Shown here one piece after another: positions 2,899 through 48,157 of a DNA stretch of 64,000 nt. The notes under the pieces were generated by a model. The model was given only the letters and a program-made list of their open reading frames with translations, was not told the origin of the DNA and did no database searches. The stretch comes from Escherichia coli (GTDB lineage: Bacteria > Pseudomonadota > Gammaproteobacteria > Enterobacterales > Enterobacteriaceae): NCBI RefSeq assembly GCF_013315695.1, contig NZ_CP054353.1, one strand, 5' to 3'. The translations under genes and the position numbers were made by a program. How positions within the stretch are numbered: the first letter of the stretch is position 1; each line of letters begins with the position of its first letter.

Positions 2899-4233
2899 AT
2901 GACTGTAACGACTTTTTCCGAACTTGAACTCGACGAAAGCCTGCTGGAAGCCCTCCAGGATAAAGGTTTCACTCGCCCGACCGCCATTCAGGCTGCCGCC
3001 ATTCCGCCTGCGCTCGATGGCCGTGATGTACTCGGTTCTGCGCCGACAGGCACCGGTAAAACGGCGGCGTATCTGCTGCCAGCGTTGCAGCACCTGCTCG
3101 ATTTCCCACGTAAGAAATCCGGTCCGCCGCGTATTTTGATCCTCACCCCAACTCGCGAGCTGGCGATGCAGGTGGCCGATCATGCCCGCGAACTGGCGAA
3201 ACATACGCATCTGGATATCGCCACCATCACAGGCGGCGTAGCCTATATGAACCACGCGGAAGTGTTCAGCGAAAATCAGGACATCGTGGTCGCCACGACC
3301 GGACGTCTGCTGCAATACATAAAAGAAGAGAACTTCGATTGCCGCGCGGTTGAAACGCTGATCCTCGACGAAGCAGACCGTATGCTGGATATGGGCTTCG
3401 CTCAGGATATCGAACATATTGCTGGCGAAACGCGCTGGCGTAAACAGACCCTGCTCTTTTCGGCAACGCTGGAAGGCGATGCGATTCAGGACTTTGCCGA
3501 GCGTCTGCTGGAAGATCCGGTGGAGGTTTCTGCCAATCCGTCCACCCGTGAGCGCAAAAAAATTCATCAGTGGTATTACCGCGCCGATGACCTGGAACAT
3601 AAAACCGCATTGCTGGTGCACCTGTTAAAACAGCCGGAAGCGACCCGCTCAATTGTGTTTGTGCGTAAGCGTGAGCGTGTGCATGAGCTGGCAAACTGGC
3701 TGCGCGAAGCGGGCATCAACAACTGCTATCTCGAAGGTGAGATGGTACAGGGCAAGCGTAACGAAGCGATCAAGCGTTTGACCGAAGGTCGCGTAAACGT
3801 ACTGGTTGCAACCGATGTTGCCGCGCGCGGTATCGACATTCCTGACGTCAGCCACGTCTTTAACTTCGATATGCCGCGCAGTGGTGATACTTATTTGCAC
3901 CGTATCGGACGTACCGCGCGCGCCGGTCGTAAGGGAACAGCGATTTCGCTGGTTGAAGCTCATGACCATCTGCTGCTGGGCAAAGTAGGCCGCTATATTG
4001 AAGAGCCAATTAAAGCTCGCGTTATTGATGAGTTACGCCCGAAAACGCGTGCGCCAAGCGAAAAGCAGACCGGCAAGCCATCGAAGAAAGTACTGGCTAA
4101 ACGTGCCGAGAAGAAAAAAGCTAAAGAGAAAGAGAAGCCGCGGGTGAAAAAACGCCATCGCGACACCAAAAATATTGGTAAGCGCCGTAAACCAAGCGGA
4201 ACGGGCGTGCCACCGCAAACGACAGAAGAGTGA
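2899..4233 (+). CDS. srmB: ATP-dependent DEAD-box RNA helicase SrmB
   Basis: 444-aa ORF with Q-motif, GTGKT (motif I), DEAD (motif II), [11 protein letters not shown]; basic C-terminal tail. Confidence 0.95.
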
Positions 4234-4441
4234 TCTTAATTCCGGGTTTAAGCCCGGAATTAAAAGTGCTGGCAAACGCAAAACTGCCTGATGCGCTACG
4301 CTTATCAGGCCTACATGGCTCATGCAATATATTGAATTTGCACGATCTTGTAGGCCGGATAAGGCGTTCACGCCGCATCCGGCATGAACAAAACGCACTT
4401 CGTCGACAAGTTGGGTGCCGGGTTTAAGCCCGGCATTATTT
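4234..4441. repeat. REP/BIME cluster bracketed by two hairpins with identical core CCGGGTTTAAGCCCGG
   Basis: REP-like units gcctgatgcgctacgcttatcaggcctac and gtaggccggataaggcgttcacgccgcatccggcatg; hairpin copies at about 4241-4264 and 4413-4432. Confidence 0.6.
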
Positions 4442-5323
4442 TTATCCCGGCAAAAAACACTCTTCAACACACTGAATAAAAATGTGCATCGCCGGGCTAA
4501 CCGCTTTTCCGGCATGGTGAGCGCACATTGCCGTAATGGTCTGCGACTGTTCGCCAAAAGGCAATTCGATTAATTCGCCACTCGCAAGTTCATTTGCCAC
4601 TGTAAAGCGCGGCAGGTAACTGACCCCGATATTTGCCGCGACACAACGCTTGATGCTTTCGATACTTATAAGCTCAATGGTGTTTTCCACCGTGATCCGT
4701 CGCTGGCGCAGCGTGCTCTCAAATATCTGGCGGAAGACACATTGCGGTTCATTGATAATAAAACTACAGGCGTTATGTCTTCCCTGCTCAGTAAAATCGA
4801 CATCTGCAATTTGCGGTGAAGCCACCAGCACCAGCGATTGTTCACCCAACTCTCGCCGGTTCAGAGCATTATCATTCCCTACGCGATAAAAAACCCCGAC
4901 ATCGGCCTCATCATTCAGTAGCGCATCACGGATCACGTAACAGTTCAGAGACTGCAACGATAAACGCACTTTTGGTGCGCGTTGCCGAAAACGCTGCAAC
5001 ACCTGCGGCATTCGGTAAGAGAGCAACGTTTCGCCTGAAACAACGCGTAGTTCCCCGTCCGGATCCGACTCTTTTTTGGCAGCCTCACGAAGGGTATCCA
5101 TCACTCTGGTGAGTTCATAAATGTGCGGCAGCAGCTTTTTTCCTTCGCGGGTAAGGCACATTCGTCGACCAATTTTCTCAAATAACTGGACTGAGAACTC
5201 CTGCTCAAGCTGCTGAATATGAAAAGTCACCGTCGATTGTGTGCAGCACAATTTTTGCGAAGCTCGCAAGAAGGAACCCTCTTCCACCACGGTTTTAAGC
5301 GTAATAAAACGGCGCAGATCCAT
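4442..5323 (-). CDS. yfiE: LysR-family transcriptional regulator
   Basis: ORF-track call trimmed to MDLRRFITLKTVVEEGSF (293 aa); N-terminal HTH typical of LysR family; divergent from eamB. Confidence 0.85.
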   Translation of the reverse strand: MDLRRFITLKTVVEEGSFLRASQKLCCTQSTVTFHIQQLEQEFSVQLFEKIGRRMCLTREGKKLLPHIYELTRVMDTLREAAKKESDPDGELRVVSGETLLSYRMPQVLQRFRQRAPKVRLSLQSLNCYVIRDALLNDEADVGVFYRVGNDNALNRRELGEQSLVLVASPQIADVDFTEQGRHNACSFIINEPQCVFRQIFESTLRQRRITVENTIELISIESIKRCVAANIGVSYLPRFTVANELASGELIELPFGEQSQTITAMCAHHAGKAVSPAMHIFIQCVEECFLPG

Positions 5324-5425
5324 AACCCCAAACCTATCGAAAATATCGAATTTAGAATGTAAAAACATTCATTTTTTTTAATGTTCCGTGTCGGGTACTG
5401 TCTACCAAAACAGAGGAGATAACAA

Positions 5426-16071: not shown

Positions 16072-16191
16072 ATGCCTGGCAGTTCCCTACTCTCGCATGG
16101 GGAGACCCCACACTACCATCGGCGCTACGGCGTTTCACTTCTGAGTTCGGCATGGGGTCAGGTGGGACCACCGCGCTAAGGCCGCCAGGCA
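16072..16191 (-). rRNA. rrfG: 5S ribosomal RNA
   Basis: 120-nt match (reverse complement) to E. coli 5S rRNA; tgcctggcggcc...gggaactgccaggcat. Confidence 0.95.
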
Positions 16192-16285
16192 AATTCTGTT
16201 TATCAGACCACTTCTGCGTTCTGATTTAATCTGTTATCAAGCTTACTTATCGATGTCTCTTCCGCCAAAACATCTTCGGCGTTGT

Positions 16286-19189
<2,904 letters not shown>

Positions 19190-19383
19190 TCACAACCCGA
19201 AGATGTTTCTTTCGACTCATCATCGTGTTGCGAAAATTTGAGAGACTCACGAACAACTTTCGTTGTTCAGTGTTTCAATTTTCAGCTTGATCCAGATTTT
19301 TAAAGAGCAAATATCTTAAACATGACTCGTAAGTCATCTTTAACGATATTAAGGTCGGTGACTTTCACTCACAAACCAGCAAG

Positions 19384-19459
19384 TGGCGTCCCCTAGGGGA
19401 TTCGAACCCCTGTTACCGCCGTGAAAGGGCGGTGTCCTGGGCCTCTAGACGAAGGGGAC
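19384..19459 (-). tRNA. gltW: tRNA-Glu (anticodon UUC) in 16S-23S spacer
   Basis: Reverse complement matches GTCCCCTTCGTCTAGAGGCCCAGGACACCGCCCTTTCACGGCGGTAACAGGGGTTCGAATCCCCTAGGGGACGCCA. Confidence 0.95.
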
Positions 19460-19544
19460 GTATCAGTCTGCTTCGCAAGACGCCTTGCTTTTCACTTTCT
19501 ATCAGACAATCTGTGTGAGCACTTCAAAGTACGCTTCTTTAAGG

Positions 19545-21086
<1,542 letters not shown>

Positions 21087-21529: not shown

Positions 21530-24103
21530 TTACTGGACGGCGACAATCCGGTCTTCATTAACTTCCAGGCGAATCACTTTACCCGGAACCAATTCACCAG
21601 ACAGTATTTGCTGTGCCAGCGGGTTTTCGATCTGCTGCTGAATTGCACGTTTCAGAGGACGTGCACCATAGACCGGATCGTAACCGTTCTCGCTCAGCAG
21701 TTTCAGCGCCTCGTCAGAAATGTGGATTTCATAACCACGTTCTTCCAGACGTTTATACAGACGTTTCAACTGAATCTGCGCAATCGACGCAATGTGCTGT
21801 TCACCCAGCGGATGGAAGACCACCACTTCATCGATACGGTTAATGAATTCCGGACGGAAGTTATGGCTTACCACACCGAGCACCAGCTCTTTCATGTGCG
21901 CATAATCCAGTTCACCGAAGCGTTCCTGAATCAAATCGGAACCGAGGTTAGAGGTCATAATGACAACCGTATTACGGAAGTCGACCGTTCTCCCCTGCCC
22001 GTCAGTCAGACGCCCATCATCCAATACCTGCAACAGAATGTTGAAGACATCCGGATGCGCTTTTTCCACTTCATCCAGCAGGATGACGGAATACGGACGA
22101 CGACGCACCGCTTCGGTCAGGTAGCCACCTTCTTCATAACCGACATATCCCGGAGGCGCACCAACCAGACGAGACACCGAGTGTTTCTCCATAAACTCGG
22201 ACATATCGATACGGACCATCGCCTCGTCGCTATCAAACATAAAGTTCGCCAGCGCCTTACAAAGCTCAGTTTTCCCCACACCCGTTGGGCCGAGGAACAG
22301 GAATGAACCAATCGGGCGATTTGGATCCGCCAGCCCCGCACGGCTACGACGAATAGCGTTAGATACCGCATCAACCGCTTCGTTCTGACCAATAACGCGA
22401 TGGTGCAGTTCTTGCTCCATACGCAGCAGTTTTTCGCGCTCGCTTTCCATCATGCGAGAAACCGGAATCCCCGTCCAACGCGCCAGCACTTCAGCAATTT
22501 CGGCATCGGTCACTTTATTACGCAACAGACGCATAGTTTTGCCTTCGAGCTGCGTTGCGGCTTCCAGTTGCTTTTCCAGTTCCGGGATTTTGCCGTATTG
22601 CAGTTCAGACATCCGCGCCAGGTCACCCACACGGCGAGCCTGTTCAATAGCGATTTTCGCCTGTTCCAGTTCCGCTTTAATGGTCTGCGTACCAGAAAGC
22701 GATGCTTTCTCTGCTTTCCACTCTTCTTCTAACTCGGAGTACTGACGTTCTTTGTCGCTCAGTTCTTCGTTGAGCATATCCAGGCGTTTTTTACTGGCTT
22801 CATCAGACTCTTTCATTAACGCCTGTTGTTCCAGTTTGAGCTGGATGATACGGCGATCGAGTCGGTCGAGTTCTTCTGGTTTTGAGTCAATCTGCATACG
22901 AATGCTGGATGCTGCTTCATCGATCAGGTCGATGGCTTTATCTGGCAGCTGACGGTCAGCAATGTAGCGATGAGACAACGTCGCCGCTGCAACAATTGCC
23001 GGGTCAGTAATTTGCACATGGTGGTGCAATTCGTAACGTTCTTTCAGGCCACGCAGAATCGCAATGGTATCTTCAACAGAAGGCTCGGCAACAAACACTT
23101 TTTGGAAACGACGTTCCAGCGCAGCATCTTTTTCGATGTACTGGCGATATTCGTCAAGCGTCGTGGCACCTACGCAGTGCAATTCACCACGCGCCAGCGC
23201 CGGTTTCAGCATGTTTCCGGCGTCCATTGCGCCATCGGCTTTACCCGCGCCGACCATGGTATGTAATTCGTCGATAAACAGGATGACGTTGCCTTCCTGT
23301 TTGGCAAGATCGTTAAGTACGCCTTTTAAACGTTCTTCAAACTCACCGCGATATTTCGCCCCAGCCACCAGCGCGCCCATATCCAGCGCCAGTACGCGGC
23401 GGCCTTTCAACCCTTCGGGCACTTCGCCGTTGATAATACGCTGCGCCAGACCTTCAACGATGGCAGTCTTACCGACGCCGGGTTCACCAATCAGTACCGG
23501 GTTATTTTTAGTACGACGTTGCAGCACCTGAATGGTACGGCGAATTTCTTCATCACGACCAATCACCGGATCGAGTTTACCCTGTTCGGCTCGTTCGGTA
23601 AGGTCGATGGTATATTTTTTCAAAGCCTGACGTTGGTCTTCAGCACCTTGATCGTTCACGCTTTCACCTCCACGCATTTGTTCAATCGCTTGAGTAATGT
23701 TGGCGGTGGTCGCCCCTGCTGCTTTCAGGATGTCGGCCAGCGTGCCGCGAGACTCAAGTGCCGCCAGAACGAACAGTTCTGACGAGATAAAGTTATCACC
23801 ACGTTTTTGCGCCAGCTTGTCGCAAAGATTAAGAACGCGCACCAGATCCTGTGATGGCTGGACATCACCACCAGTACCTTCAACCTGCGGTAAACGATTT
23901 AATGCCTGATTGATATCTGTGCGCAACTGGCCAGCATTTATGCCAGCGGATGTTAATAAAGGACTAACCGAACCCCCTTCCTGATTCAGCAGGGCGCTCA
24001 TTAAATGAAGTGGTTCGATGAATTGGTTGTCGTGCCCGAGTGCAAGTGATTGGGCATCGGCAAGAGCAAGCTGGAATTTATTAGTAAGACGATCCAGACG
24101 CAT
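21530..24103 (-). CDS. clpB: Hsp100 disaggregase ClpB
   Basis: 857 aa from [11 protein letters not shown]; two AAA+ modules with Walker A GEPGVGKT and GPTGVGKT; coiled-coil middle domain. Confidence 0.95.
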
Positions 24104-24139
24104 AACTCCTCCCATAACGGATCAAAGTTGCTACTGGAG

Positions 24140-24172
24140 ATTAAATGAGGTCATCCCTCAATTATTCAAGGT
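24140..24172 (-). promoter_or_regulatory. Putative sigma-32 heat-shock promoter of clpB
   Basis: Minus-strand CTTGAAT -N14- CCTCATTTA resembling sigma-32 consensus CTTGAAA-N13-15-CCCCATNT. Confidence 0.55.
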
Positions 24173-24232
24173 TATTGACCAGATTAATGTGAAAAGAAAA
24201 TCACGCGTACCGGATCGTCTTGATTCTTTAGG

Positions 24233-46932: not shown

Positions 46933-46996
46933 CCATCAGCCCGGTCTTGTAGGCCTGATAAGACGCGTGAGCGTCGCATCAGGCAAGGCAAACAGT
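46933..46996. repeat. REP element between cysI and cysH
   Basis: gtaggcctgataagacgcgtgagcgtcgcatcaggc. Confidence 0.5.
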
Positions 46997-47796: not shown

Positions 47797-47906
47797 GCGA
47801 GCAGCATTCCTGATTTTAAACGTGAACGTCGTTGGAAGAATTAACAGGTATAGAATGGCGTTGGGTGCTTGAGGCTGTCTGGCGTTAAGCATTCGCGAGG
47901 TTCCAG

Positions 47907-48008
47907 ATGGACAAAAGCCCCAGGCGATATTTCTATCAACCTGAGGCCAGCGTTCGAACCCAAACAATTCGAATGTTAGTCTCTTCTTTGCAGGGAGGCA
48001 AGACATGC
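47907..48008 (+). CDS. mok-like leader ORF translationally coupled to hok-like toxin
   Basis: 33-codon ORF ([34 protein letters not shown]) whose stop overlaps the toxin start (ATGcTGA). Confidence 0.4.
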
Positions 48009-48157
48009 TGACAAAATATGCCCTTGTGGCAATCATAGTGCTGTGTTTTACAGTACTGGGATTCACGCTGATGGTAGGCGACTCGTTGTGTGAGTTGAGT
48101 ATCAGAGAACGTGGTATGGAGTTTAAGGCGGTTCTCGCTTACGAATCGAAGAAGTAG
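48005..48157 (+). CDS. Hok/Gef-family type I toxin (50 aa)
   Basis: [50 protein letters not shown]; single TM helix then conserved SLCE...AYES periplasmic motif; RBS agggagg 7 nt upstream; below 60-aa cutoff of ORF track. Confidence 0.8.

What the first reader, a model, noticed from the sequence alone, without database searches (positions are those of the whole stretch)
4234..4441. REP cluster bracketed by two copies of the same hairpin core
Downstream of srmB, two REP-type palindromes are flanked by two hairpins sharing the core CCGGGTTTAAGCCCGG. The first directly follows the srmB stop; the second precedes a T-run just before the convergent yfiE stop. The layout looks like a composite BIME-like element that may act as terminator and mRNA stabiliser.
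Basis: seen in the sequence. Interest (0 to 1): 0.2.

Follow-up and report, generated by a model that had tools for sequence, protein, structure and literature searches.

The report
BIME-1 insertion duplicated srmB terminator hairpin
The two identical hairpins are the two halves of a footprint left when a 153-bp mobile REP element (BIME-1) inserted into the single terminator hairpin between srmB and yfiE and duplicated it; the same hairpin-doubling footprint flanks about half of the other BIME-1 copies examined, a clue to how these elements move.

Summary
CCGGGTTTAAGCCCGG occurs exactly twice in the 64-kb window (4242 and 4418; 0.02 expected). It is part of a 21-24-nt direct repeat spaced 176 bp.

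The 153 bp between the copies (4262-4414) is one complete BIME-1: arm, Y REP, L linker with an IHF-like site, inverted Z1 REP, arm.

The hairpins are not part of that repeat family. About half of 5,426 complete E. coli genomes carry an allele exactly 176 bp shorter, with one hairpin plus T-tract between the two stop codons. E. albertii and Citrobacter also have a single hairpin there. The hairpin pair is therefore a palindrome-length target duplication of the srmB/yfiE terminator.

The pattern is general. Of 18 independent BIME-1 sites, 9 (plus yddM-fdnI) are bracketed by two copies of a site-specific hairpin of 17-34 bp, in fixed register with the element ends. All 5 such sites tested have single-hairpin empty alleles.

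The element and locus are known. I found no description of this footprint in the literature I could read.

Terminator or stabiliser function is only predicted. K-12 3'-end data list no 3' end here and show Rho-dependent termination further downstream on both strands.

The parts
2899..4233 (+). srmB coding sequence (stop TGA 4231-4233)
   Evidence: ORF list; annotated as srmB in matching E. coli records.
4238..4261 (.). Left copy of the duplicated terminator palindrome (AATTCCGGGTTTAAGCCCGGAATT; the extended palindrome is 4236-4263). It is followed by no T-tract.
   Evidence: It aligns to the single hairpin of empty alleles. It carries a compensatory G:C to T:A change relative to the ancestral AATGCC...GGCATT.
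4262..4414 (+). One complete BIME-1 unit, 153 bp
   Evidence: Other genomic BIME-1 copies match window 4263/4267 to 4409/4414 at 86-92% identity. Most of 18 sites have a 153-bp unit. This segment plus one hairpin copy (176 bp) is what is absent from empty alleles.
4262..4285 (+). Left arm of BIME-1 (the 'A' motif; name from memory), a diverged form of the consensus GAGACTGATGACAAACGCAAAACT; TIR-like
   Evidence: Consensus of 18 sites. The left end and the reverse complement of the right end agree at 13 of the first 16 positions.
4286..4314 (+). Y-type REP / palindromic unit
   Evidence: Published PU pattern hit at 4283-4315 (+).
4315..4348 (.). L linker of BIME-1 with an IHF-like site (4325-4337, - strand, ATTCAATATATTG, 1 mismatch to WATCAANNNNTTR)
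   Evidence: Rfam ES036/CssrF hit at 4307-4349 (-), 48.1 bits against a gathering score of 37.6. IHF-like match, which is not significant on its own. PMC3333891 states that the BIME-1 L linker frequently carries an IHF site.
4349..4386 (-). Z1-type REP / palindromic unit, inverted relative to the Y REP
   Evidence: Published PU pattern hit with 0 mismatches; weak naRNA4 (REP325) hits.
4387..4414 (+). Right arm of BIME-1 (the 'B' motif; name from memory), a diverged form of ...GCGCACTTTGTCAGCAATCTGA; TIR-like
4414..4437 (.). Right copy of the duplicated terminator palindrome (GGTGCCGGGTTTAAGCCCGGCATT)
4438..4446 (+). T-tract (ATTTTTATC). Together with the right hairpin it forms the predicted intrinsic terminator of srmB. 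It overlaps the yfiE stop codon.
   Evidence: Terminator scan: stem 4414-4437, 10 pairs, tail ATTTTTATCC.
4442..5368 (-). yfiE (LysR-family regulator) coding sequence, convergent with srmB
   Evidence: ORF list; annotation in matching records.

Best explanation
Ancestral state. srmB and yfiE were separated by about 32 bp holding one GC-rich palindrome, AATGCCGGGTTTAAGCCCGGCATT, followed by ATTTTTAT. This is an intrinsic terminator for srmB whose T-tract overlaps the yfiE stop.

The event. A 153-bp BIME-1 integrated at this palindrome and the whole palindrome (23-25 bp) was duplicated. The result is hairpin copy 1, then BIME-1, then hairpin copy 2 plus T-tract. BIME-1 here means: arm, Y REP, L linker with IHF-like site, inverted Z1 REP, arm, with imperfect 16-bp terminal inverted repeats.

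What is shown:
- the identity of the element;
- the empty-site alleles and the single hairpin in outgroups;
- the same footprint at other BIME-1 sites.

Consequences, inferred from the sequence:
- The srmB transcript now meets a tail-less hairpin 3 nt after its stop, then the REP pair, and only then the hairpin with T-tract 176 bp further on.
- The 24-bp direct repeats allow precise loss of the element, which may account for part of the polymorphism.
- They also allow tandem gain, as in Escherichia sp. E1V33, which has two units.

Mechanism of integration, inferred with roughly 0.35 confidence:
- The duplicated segment is the hairpin itself at every site, whatever its length (17-34 bp).
- This suggests the target is recognised as an extruded hairpin or cruciform and each strand is nicked at the same foot of its hairpin.
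- That would give a stagger equal to the palindrome length, which is filled in after the element is joined.
- The REP-associated Y1 transposase (RAYT, TnpA_REP), which acts at the foot of REP hairpins in single-stranded DNA, is the obvious candidate. A Holliday-junction-type cut of a cruciform would give the same product.
For: Allele counts at srmB-yfiE.
- 2,524 of 5,426 complete E. coli genomes hold the full 601-bp query. Many others span 423-425 bp, 176 bp shorter.
- An empty-site query is covered at 80% or more in 2,503 genomes.
- Alignment A1 shows empty alleles with one hairpin, TCTCAATGCCGGGTTTAAGCCCGGCATTATTTTTAT.

Outgroups.
- E. albertii and three Citrobacter species have a single hairpin between srmB and yfiE.
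- Salmonella arizonae, Klebsiella, Enterobacter and others have a single srmB terminator hairpin.
- Two other Escherichia species are filled, with the same idiosyncratic element ends. This indicates one insertion event.

The spacer is one full BIME-1. Other copies (entD-fepA, nagD-asnB, yddM-fdnI, cueO-gcd) match window 4263/4267 to 4409/4414.

Generality.
- In 18 independent sites, the left-flank versus right-flank alignment score reaches the 99th percentile of mismatched pairs (10; null mean 6.2) at 9 sites. yddM-fdnI adds a tenth.
- The left copy ends 3-6 nt (most often 4) before the CTGATGAC motif at 10 of 11 aligned pairs.
- The right copy starts -1 to +1 nt from the ...CAATCTGA end at 8 of 11.
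- Each copy folds as a hairpin.

Filled and empty alleles confirmed at 5 of 5 such sites:
- srmB-yfiE;
- yddM-fdnI;
- metE-ysgA and artJ-rlmC;
- ymdF-rutG.
Each empty allele has one hairpin.

The left copy keeps its pairing through stepwise changes. At the 7:18 pair, G:C becomes G.T (L114, L124) and then A:T (K-12). In the window, G:C has become T:A.
Against: - About half of the BIME-1 sites sampled show no recognisable flanking repeat. Some have a hairpin on one side only.
- The nagD-asnB alternative allele is not a simple empty site.
- No de novo insertion has been observed. Direction at srmB-yfiE is inferred from outgroups, and within E. coli some empty alleles could be secondary precise deletions.
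- IS200/IS605-type Y1 transposases, the relatives of RAYT, make no larger target duplications (PMC2817692). Ton-Hoang et al. expected integration into targets that already carry a REP or BIME. A RAYT-made long duplication would therefore be unprecedented.
- The right junction at yddM-fdnI shares CAAT with the target, which would also fit a microhomology or template-switch route.
- The older BIME papers (Gilson 1991; Bachellier 1994, 1997) could not be read.
Confidence: 0.85

Rival explanations
1. Hairpin, REP, REP and hairpin together form one composite BIME-like repeated module, and the hairpin core is a dispersed motif that travels with it.
For: The two hairpins are nearly identical and symmetrically placed. 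Hairpins also flank many other BIME-1 copies.
Against: The flanking hairpins differ in sequence from site to site, and each matches the single hairpin of that site's own empty allele. Other BIME-1 copies share only window 4263-4414. The core is found only at this locus in the 1.57 Mb held.
Confidence: 0.03
2. The duplication and insertion arose by replication template switching or microhomology-mediated repair at a stalled hairpin, copying a BIME-1 from elsewhere, rather than by transposase-type staggered nicking. The structure is the same; only the mechanism of origin differs.
For: The duplication length varies (17-34 bp), unlike classical transposases. There are 1-nt overlaps at several right junctions, and a shared CAAT at the yddM-fdnI junction where the element end lacks CTGA. 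Hairpins are known replication obstacles (general knowledge).
Against: The element boundaries are very uniform: 153 bp at most sites, with the left copy ending 3-6 nt (most often 4) before CTGATGAC at 10 of 11 aligned pairs. This argues for defined ends rather than variable copy-choice junctions. One nucleotide of microhomology is too little to direct a return precisely to the 5' foot of each palindrome.
Confidence: 0.3
3. The presence/absence polymorphism inside E. coli reflects repeated precise loss by recombination or slippage between the 24-bp direct repeats after one ancient insertion. It does not reflect recent insertion or ancestral empty alleles.
For: Filled alleles in E. coli and in two other Escherichia species share the same diverged element ends, so there was one event. 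The window-like yfiE haplotype occurs both filled (window) and empty (L001, 98.2% identical), whereas K-12, also filled, is only 93.7% identical. Tandem doubling in L008 shows that the repeats do recombine. From memory, the Bachellier 1997 abstract reports 'excisions of a whole BIME-1'.
Against: This rival does not explain where the direct repeats came from. E. albertii and Citrobacter have a single hairpin. Homologous recombination between strains could equally shuffle the two states. It complements the main explanation rather than replacing it.
Confidence: 0.5
4. The two hairpins are independently evolved, gene-specific terminators: one for srmB, one for yfiE.
For: Each hairpin sits next to one stop codon.
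Against: They are 20/21 identical, including the asymmetric loop TTTAAG and in the same orientation. Neither is followed by a T-tract in the direction of its adjacent gene: the left copy lacks one on the + strand and the right copy lacks one on the - strand. Empty alleles have one hairpin.
Confidence: 0.01

Closest known systems
BIME-1 (also called RIB or RIP elements) of E. coli
   Same: A Y REP and an inverted Z1 REP separated by the conserved long L linker with an IHF-type site, flanked by conserved arms. It lies at the 3' ends of convergent genes and is normally a single unit per locus (description in PMC3333891; tested).
   Different: Nothing differs in the element itself. What the descriptions I could read do not mention is that the element sits between two copies of the host terminator hairpin. 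In one Escherichia species the hairpin-plus-BIME-1 unit is tandemly doubled.
REPINs mobilised by RAYT (TnpA_REP), and their IS200/IS605 relatives
   Same: Two inverted REP hairpins with a spacer. The element folds as one long hairpin. It is non-autonomous, and presence/absence polymorphism suggests mobility.
   Different: IS200/IS605-type transposition makes no larger target duplication (PMC2817692). Ton-Hoang et al. expected integration into an existing REP or BIME. Here the target is a non-REP terminator palindrome, and it is duplicated whole.
Bacterial MITEs (for example ERIC/IRU, Correia, RUP)
   Same: Size of about 150 bp, imperfect terminal inverted repeats (13 of 16), flanking direct repeats, intergenic location.
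   Different: MITE target duplications are short and of fixed length, set by the transposase. Here the length is 17-34 bp and follows the size of the target hairpin. The review PMC3184786 states that REPs lack MITE signatures.
Mobile elements that target DNA stem-loops (group IIC introns at terminators; IS1397, IS621 and ISPpu9-type IS in REPs) - comparison from memory
   Same: The insertion site is chosen by a hairpin or palindrome rather than by a plain sequence. An IS200-family element sits next to the yddM-fdnI hairpin in one strain.
   Different: To my knowledge those elements do not duplicate the whole target hairpin.
Intrinsic (partly bidirectional) terminators between convergent genes
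   Same: The empty allele is a GC-rich hairpin plus T-tract squeezed between two stop codons. The right copy keeps this form.
   Different: The left copy has lost the T-tract. No 3' end is catalogued here in K-12, and Rho-dependent termination regions lie downstream on both strands.

Membership tests
BIME-1 (RIB/RIP) | Two palindromic units (REPs) of Y and Z1 type in inverted orientation | tested here: met
   A published PU pattern hits 4283-4315 (+) with 1 mismatch and 4349-4386 (-) with 0 mismatches. The Y/Z1 naming rests on the description in PMC3333891 and on memory of the consensus sequences.
BIME-1 (RIB/RIP) | Conserved long L linker between the REPs, carrying an IHF-type site | tested here: met
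   Rfam ES036 (43-nt model) matches 4307-4349 at 48.1 bits against a gathering score of 37.6. The linker is conserved across about 30 other sites retrieved with an L-motif pattern. An IHF consensus match with 1 mismatch lies at 4325-4337. Binding itself was not tested.
BIME-1 (RIB/RIP) | Member of a dispersed repeat family sharing the whole unit, including the outer arms | tested here: met
   There are at least 40 matching places per genome in nearly all of 5,425 genomes. Other loci match 93-97% of the 153-base query. The unit is 153 bp at most of 18 sites.
BIME-1 (RIB/RIP) | Single copy per locus | tested here: met
   There is one unit in the window. Exception elsewhere: two tandem units in L008.
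REPIN/RAYT system | A cognate RAYT (tnpA_REP) gene in the same genome, and RAYT-dependent mobility | not tested
   No RAYT search was made in the window or the genome. Mobility is inferred only from filled and empty alleles.
MITE | Terminal inverted repeats | tested here: met
   The consensus left end TGAGACTGATGACAAA and the reverse complement of the right end TCAGATTGTTGACAAA agree at 13 of 16 positions.
MITE | Short target-site duplication of fixed length | tested here: not met
   The duplications are 17-34 bp and track the size of the hairpin.
Intrinsic terminator | GC-rich hairpin immediately followed by a T/U-tract | tested here: met
   Right copy: stem 4414-4437 plus ATTTTTAT. The left copy does not meet this, since AAAAGTG follows it.
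Intrinsic terminator | Transcript 3' ends mapped at the tract | tested here: inconclusive
   Adams et al. 2021 list no curated 3' end at MG1655 2714200-2714599. Rho regions lie at 2714601 (+) and 2713962 (-). K-12's right copy is weakened (-9.3 kcal/mol), so this may not apply to the window strain.

The most novel reading that the evidence does not exclude
BIME-1 is, or was, a MITE-like transposon that specifically integrates at intrinsic-terminator palindromes. Its integration duplicates the entire palindrome, whatever its length (17-34 bp). This would imply strand-symmetric cleavage at the feet of an extruded hairpin or cruciform. That integration mode and footprint have not been described for REP/RAYT (HUH Y1) systems, and they would give the first sequence-level handle on how REP elements colonise new loci.
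Probability: 0.45. Interest if true: 0.75.

Novelty: new variant of a known kind. Interest (0 to 1): 0.5.

Why it matters
How REP/BIME elements spread has been open for about 40 years. Ton-Hoang et al. 2012 state that the mechanism is unknown, and a 2011 review says REPs lack transposon-like signatures.

A reproducible footprint changes what can be tested:
- defined 153-bp ends;
- a target that is a terminator hairpin;
- a duplication equal to the hairpin.

Together these define the target and the geometry of the cuts. They predict the junctions to look for in RAYT induction experiments. They also explain how BIME-1 can be lost precisely or doubled in tandem.

The footprint also means each insertion rewires 3' ends. 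One gene of a convergent pair keeps the hairpin but loses the T-tract, and its 3' UTR is extended through REP structures. That is a natural filled-versus-empty experiment already present in roughly half of sequenced E. coli.

For annotation, paired hairpins around a REP pair should be read as target duplication, not as extra terminators or a new motif family.

Tried and rejected
- Dispersed hairpin family. The core occurs only at this locus in the window and in the 1.57 Mb of loci held. A whole-genome count in one E. coli genome was not possible with the tools, because short queries fall below the BLAST thresholds.
- Rfam. It gives only the BIME-derived hits, ES036 and weak naRNA4. The other matches are noise.
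- Promoter scan. None in 3900-4800.
- 3'-end data. Adams 2021 has no curated 3' end in the intergenic region. Dar & Sorek 2018 and the 3'-UTR valves paper have no held supplements. The TERMITe supplements do not mention srmB or yfiE.
- Literature on a BIME or REP target duplication. Nine full-text searches and eleven papers read found no description. Bachellier 1997 and Boccard & Prentki 1993 are not held.
- IHF consensus alone. It is not informative: 51 matches against 54 expected in the window.
- nagD-asnB as a short-duplication example. The apparent 7-bp repeat TTGGCTC is not supported, because the alternative allele is a complex replacement.
- Independent terminators, and a composite repeat: rejected (see rival explanations).

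Full report
**1. The observation**

The region lies between the convergent genes srmB (+, stop TGA 4231-4233) and yfiE (-, stop at 4442-4444). The window matches E. coli strain MS 21-1 at 100% here, and K-12 at only 93.7%.

The 16-mer CCGGGTTTAAGCCCGG occurs exactly twice on the + strand, at 4242 and 4418, and nowhere else in 64 kb. Shuffles give a mean of 0.02 matches. The repeat is really 21 nt at 20/21 identity, spaced 176 bp. Each copy sits in a palindrome that folds at -17.4 kcal/mol as + strand RNA.

The second copy is followed by ATTTTTAT and is the only terminator-like site found in 3900-4800. A published palindromic-unit (PU) pattern hits 4283-4315 (+) and 4349-4386 (-). Rfam ES036 matches the linker between them above its gathering score.

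**2. What lies between the hairpins**

I searched the 153 bases between the hairpin copies against 5,426 complete E. coli genomes. Every genome has dozens of matches. In genomes where the best match is at another locus (entD-fepA, nagD-asnB, yddM-fdnI, cueO-gcd), it covers positions 1/5/11 to 142-152 of the query, at 86-92% identity.

The whole spacer (4262-4414) is therefore one unit of a dispersed family:
- an arm (consensus GAGACTGATGACAAACGCAAAACT);
- a Y REP;
- the L linker with an IHF-type site;
- an inverted Z1 REP;
- an arm (...GCGCACTTTGTCAGCAATCTGA).

This is BIME-1 as described in PMC3333891. In 18 independent sites the unit is almost always 153 bp, and its two ends are imperfect inverted repeats agreeing at 13 of 16 positions. 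The flanking hairpin is not part of the family.

**3. The hairpin pair is a target duplication**

Allele counts:
- 2,524 genomes hold the full 601-bp query.
- Many others span 423-425 bp instead, 176 bp less, which equals the repeat spacing.
- A query built from such an allele is covered at 80% or more in 2,503 genomes. The count is slightly contaminated by joined filled hits such as H55.

The alignment shows these alleles have a single hairpin between the two stop codons: GAGTAA-TCTC-AATGCCGGGTTTAAGCCCGGCATT-ATTTTTAT.

Outgroups fetched through SrmB give the direction of the event:
- E. albertii, the E. coli species representative and three Citrobacter species have one hairpin between srmB and yfiE.
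- Salmonella arizonae, Klebsiella, Enterobacter, Trabulsiella, Yokenella and others have one terminator hairpin after srmB.
- Two other Escherichia species (MOD1-EC7003 and E1V33) are filled. They carry the same diverged element ends (GTGCTGGC..., ...GTCGACAAGTTG), so this was one insertion.
- E1V33 has two tandem hairpin-plus-BIME units.

The ancestral state was one terminator palindrome. A BIME-1 went in and the 23-25-bp palindrome was duplicated.

**4. The footprint is general**

One scan of metagenome contigs with an L-linker pattern returned 120 stretches. These gave 112 instances in 33 site groups. Many show two diverged copies of a site-specific GC-rich hairpin on either side of the element.

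For the 19 entries with both ends definable (18 independent loci):
- Local alignment of the 45 nt on the left with the 45 nt on the right gave a null, from mismatched pairs, with mean 6.2 and 99th percentile 10.
- Nine independent sites reach 10-19. yddM-fdnI, found separately, is a tenth.

The register is fixed:
- The left copy ends 3-6 nt (most often 4) before CTGATGAC at 10 of 11 aligned pairs, that is, just before the conserved GAGA.
- The right copy starts -1 to +1 nt from the end of ...CAATCTGA at 8 of 11.
- The repeat is 18-34 nt and folds as a hairpin in both copies.

I tested five such sites for empty alleles, and all five have them, each with one hairpin:

| Site | Size difference | Duplication |
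|---|---|---|
| srmB-yfiE | 176 bp | 23-25 bp |
| yddM-fdnI | 179 bp | 30-34 bp, including the A/T arms of the palindrome |
| metE-ysgA | about 171 bp | about 20 bp |
| artJ-rlmC | 170 bp | 17-18 bp |
| ymdF-rutG | 174 bp | about 22 bp |

All five are convergent gene pairs. About half the sites lack a recognisable repeat, and some have a hairpin on one side only. The nagD-asnB alternative allele is a complex replacement, not an empty site.

**5. How it probably works**

Shown:
- the element has defined ends;
- the target is a terminator palindrome;
- the duplicated segment is that palindrome, whatever its size.

Inferred:
- A duplication whose length follows the target structure is what staggered nicks at the two feet of an extruded hairpin or cruciform would give. 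One nick falls on each strand at the equivalent foot, and the overhangs are filled in after joining.
- A Holliday-junction-type cut of a cruciform gives the same product.
- RAYT (TnpA_REP) cleaves single-stranded DNA at the foot of REP hairpins and is the obvious candidate.
- However, its IS200/IS605 relatives make no such duplications, and Ton-Hoang et al. expected REP-bearing targets.
- A template-switch route remains possible. The yddM-fdnI right junction shares CAAT with the target and lacks the terminal CTGA.

**6. Consequences at this locus**

- The srmB transcript meets a tail-less hairpin 3 nt after its stop, then the Y/Z1 pair, which folds as one long stem, and then the hairpin plus T-tract.
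- The yfiE transcript meets the right copy directly after its stop, with no T-tract in its direction in either allele.
- The left copy keeps its pairing through stepwise changes: G:C to G.T (L114, L124) to A:T (K-12), and G:C to T:A in the window, with a mismatch intermediate in L007.
- The intermediates are wobble pairs only in the srmB-sense RNA: -13.0 against -6.4 kcal/mol. This hints at constraint on the srmB 3' UTR, but on few events.

Function is otherwise untested. In K-12, Adams et al. 2021 list no curated 3' end in 2714200-2714599. They do list Rho-dependent regions at 2714601 (+, 371 nt past the srmB stop) and 2713962 (-, antisense to srmB), which indicates read-through both ways. 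K-12's right copy is weakened to -9.3 kcal/mol.

**7. Novelty**

The element family, its location at 3' ends and its presence/absence polymorphism are known. The last rests on my memory of the Bachellier 1997 abstract, which mentions 'excisions of a whole BIME-1'.

In what I could search and read, the hairpin-length target duplication is not described:
- A 2011 review says REPs lack MITE signatures.
- The 2012 RAYT paper says the mechanism is unknown.
- Recent REP papers do not mention it.

The key older papers were not available, so priority is uncertain.

**Verdict**

The finding is a real and ordinary object (BIME-1 in a known locus). Its odd feature, the twin hairpins, has a clear explanation. 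That explanation exposes a general and possibly unreported insertion footprint. Interest is moderate (0.5).

Noticed in passing
L008 about 4338-4720 (Escherichia sp. E1V33, srmB-yfiE): There are two tandem hairpin-plus-BIME-1 units, with three hairpin copies at 4344, 4520 and 4696. BIME-1 is described as single-copy per locus. The arrangement looks like unequal exchange between the duplicated hairpins.
   Followed up: partly
L212 about 243-957 (E. coli ECSC054, yddM-fdnI): An IS200/IS605-family tnpA element is inserted immediately 5' of the same terminator hairpin that is the BIME-1 target at this locus in other strains.
   Followed up: no
window 4307-4349 (-): The Rfam 'sRNA' family ES036 (CssrF) matches above its gathering score, but the matched segment is simply the L linker of BIME-1. 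The family may describe the repeat rather than a discrete sRNA gene.
   Followed up: partly
window 4050-4650 as a query; rows H37-H39: Some E. coli genomes match only query 1-320 or 262-599. The locus is interrupted inside the BIME, around the L linker or Z1 REP. An IS inserted in the REP is a possible cause.
   Followed up: no
window 4442-4650 (3' part of yfiE): There are two diverged haplotypes. K-12 is 93.7% identical to the window over 601 bp, while an empty-site strain (L001) is 98.2% identical. The filled and empty states are therefore not tied to the flanking haplotype, which points to recombination or repeated loss.
   Followed up: partly
L086 versus L217 (nagD-asnB): The allele without this BIME-1 is 140 bp shorter and has different sequence after the nagD hairpin. 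It is not a simple empty site. The apparent 7-bp repeat TTGGCTC in the filled allele is unexplained.
   Followed up: partly
window 46948-46987 (-): This is another palindromic unit (REP), matching the published PU pattern with 0 mismatches. Its context was not examined.
   Followed up: no
window 16074-21086 (-), 24084-24222 (-), 47863-48020 (+): An rRNA operon (5S, 23S, a tRNA, 16S), the RyfD sRNA and a sok antitoxin RNA (hok/sok-type locus) lie elsewhere in the window.
   Followed up: no
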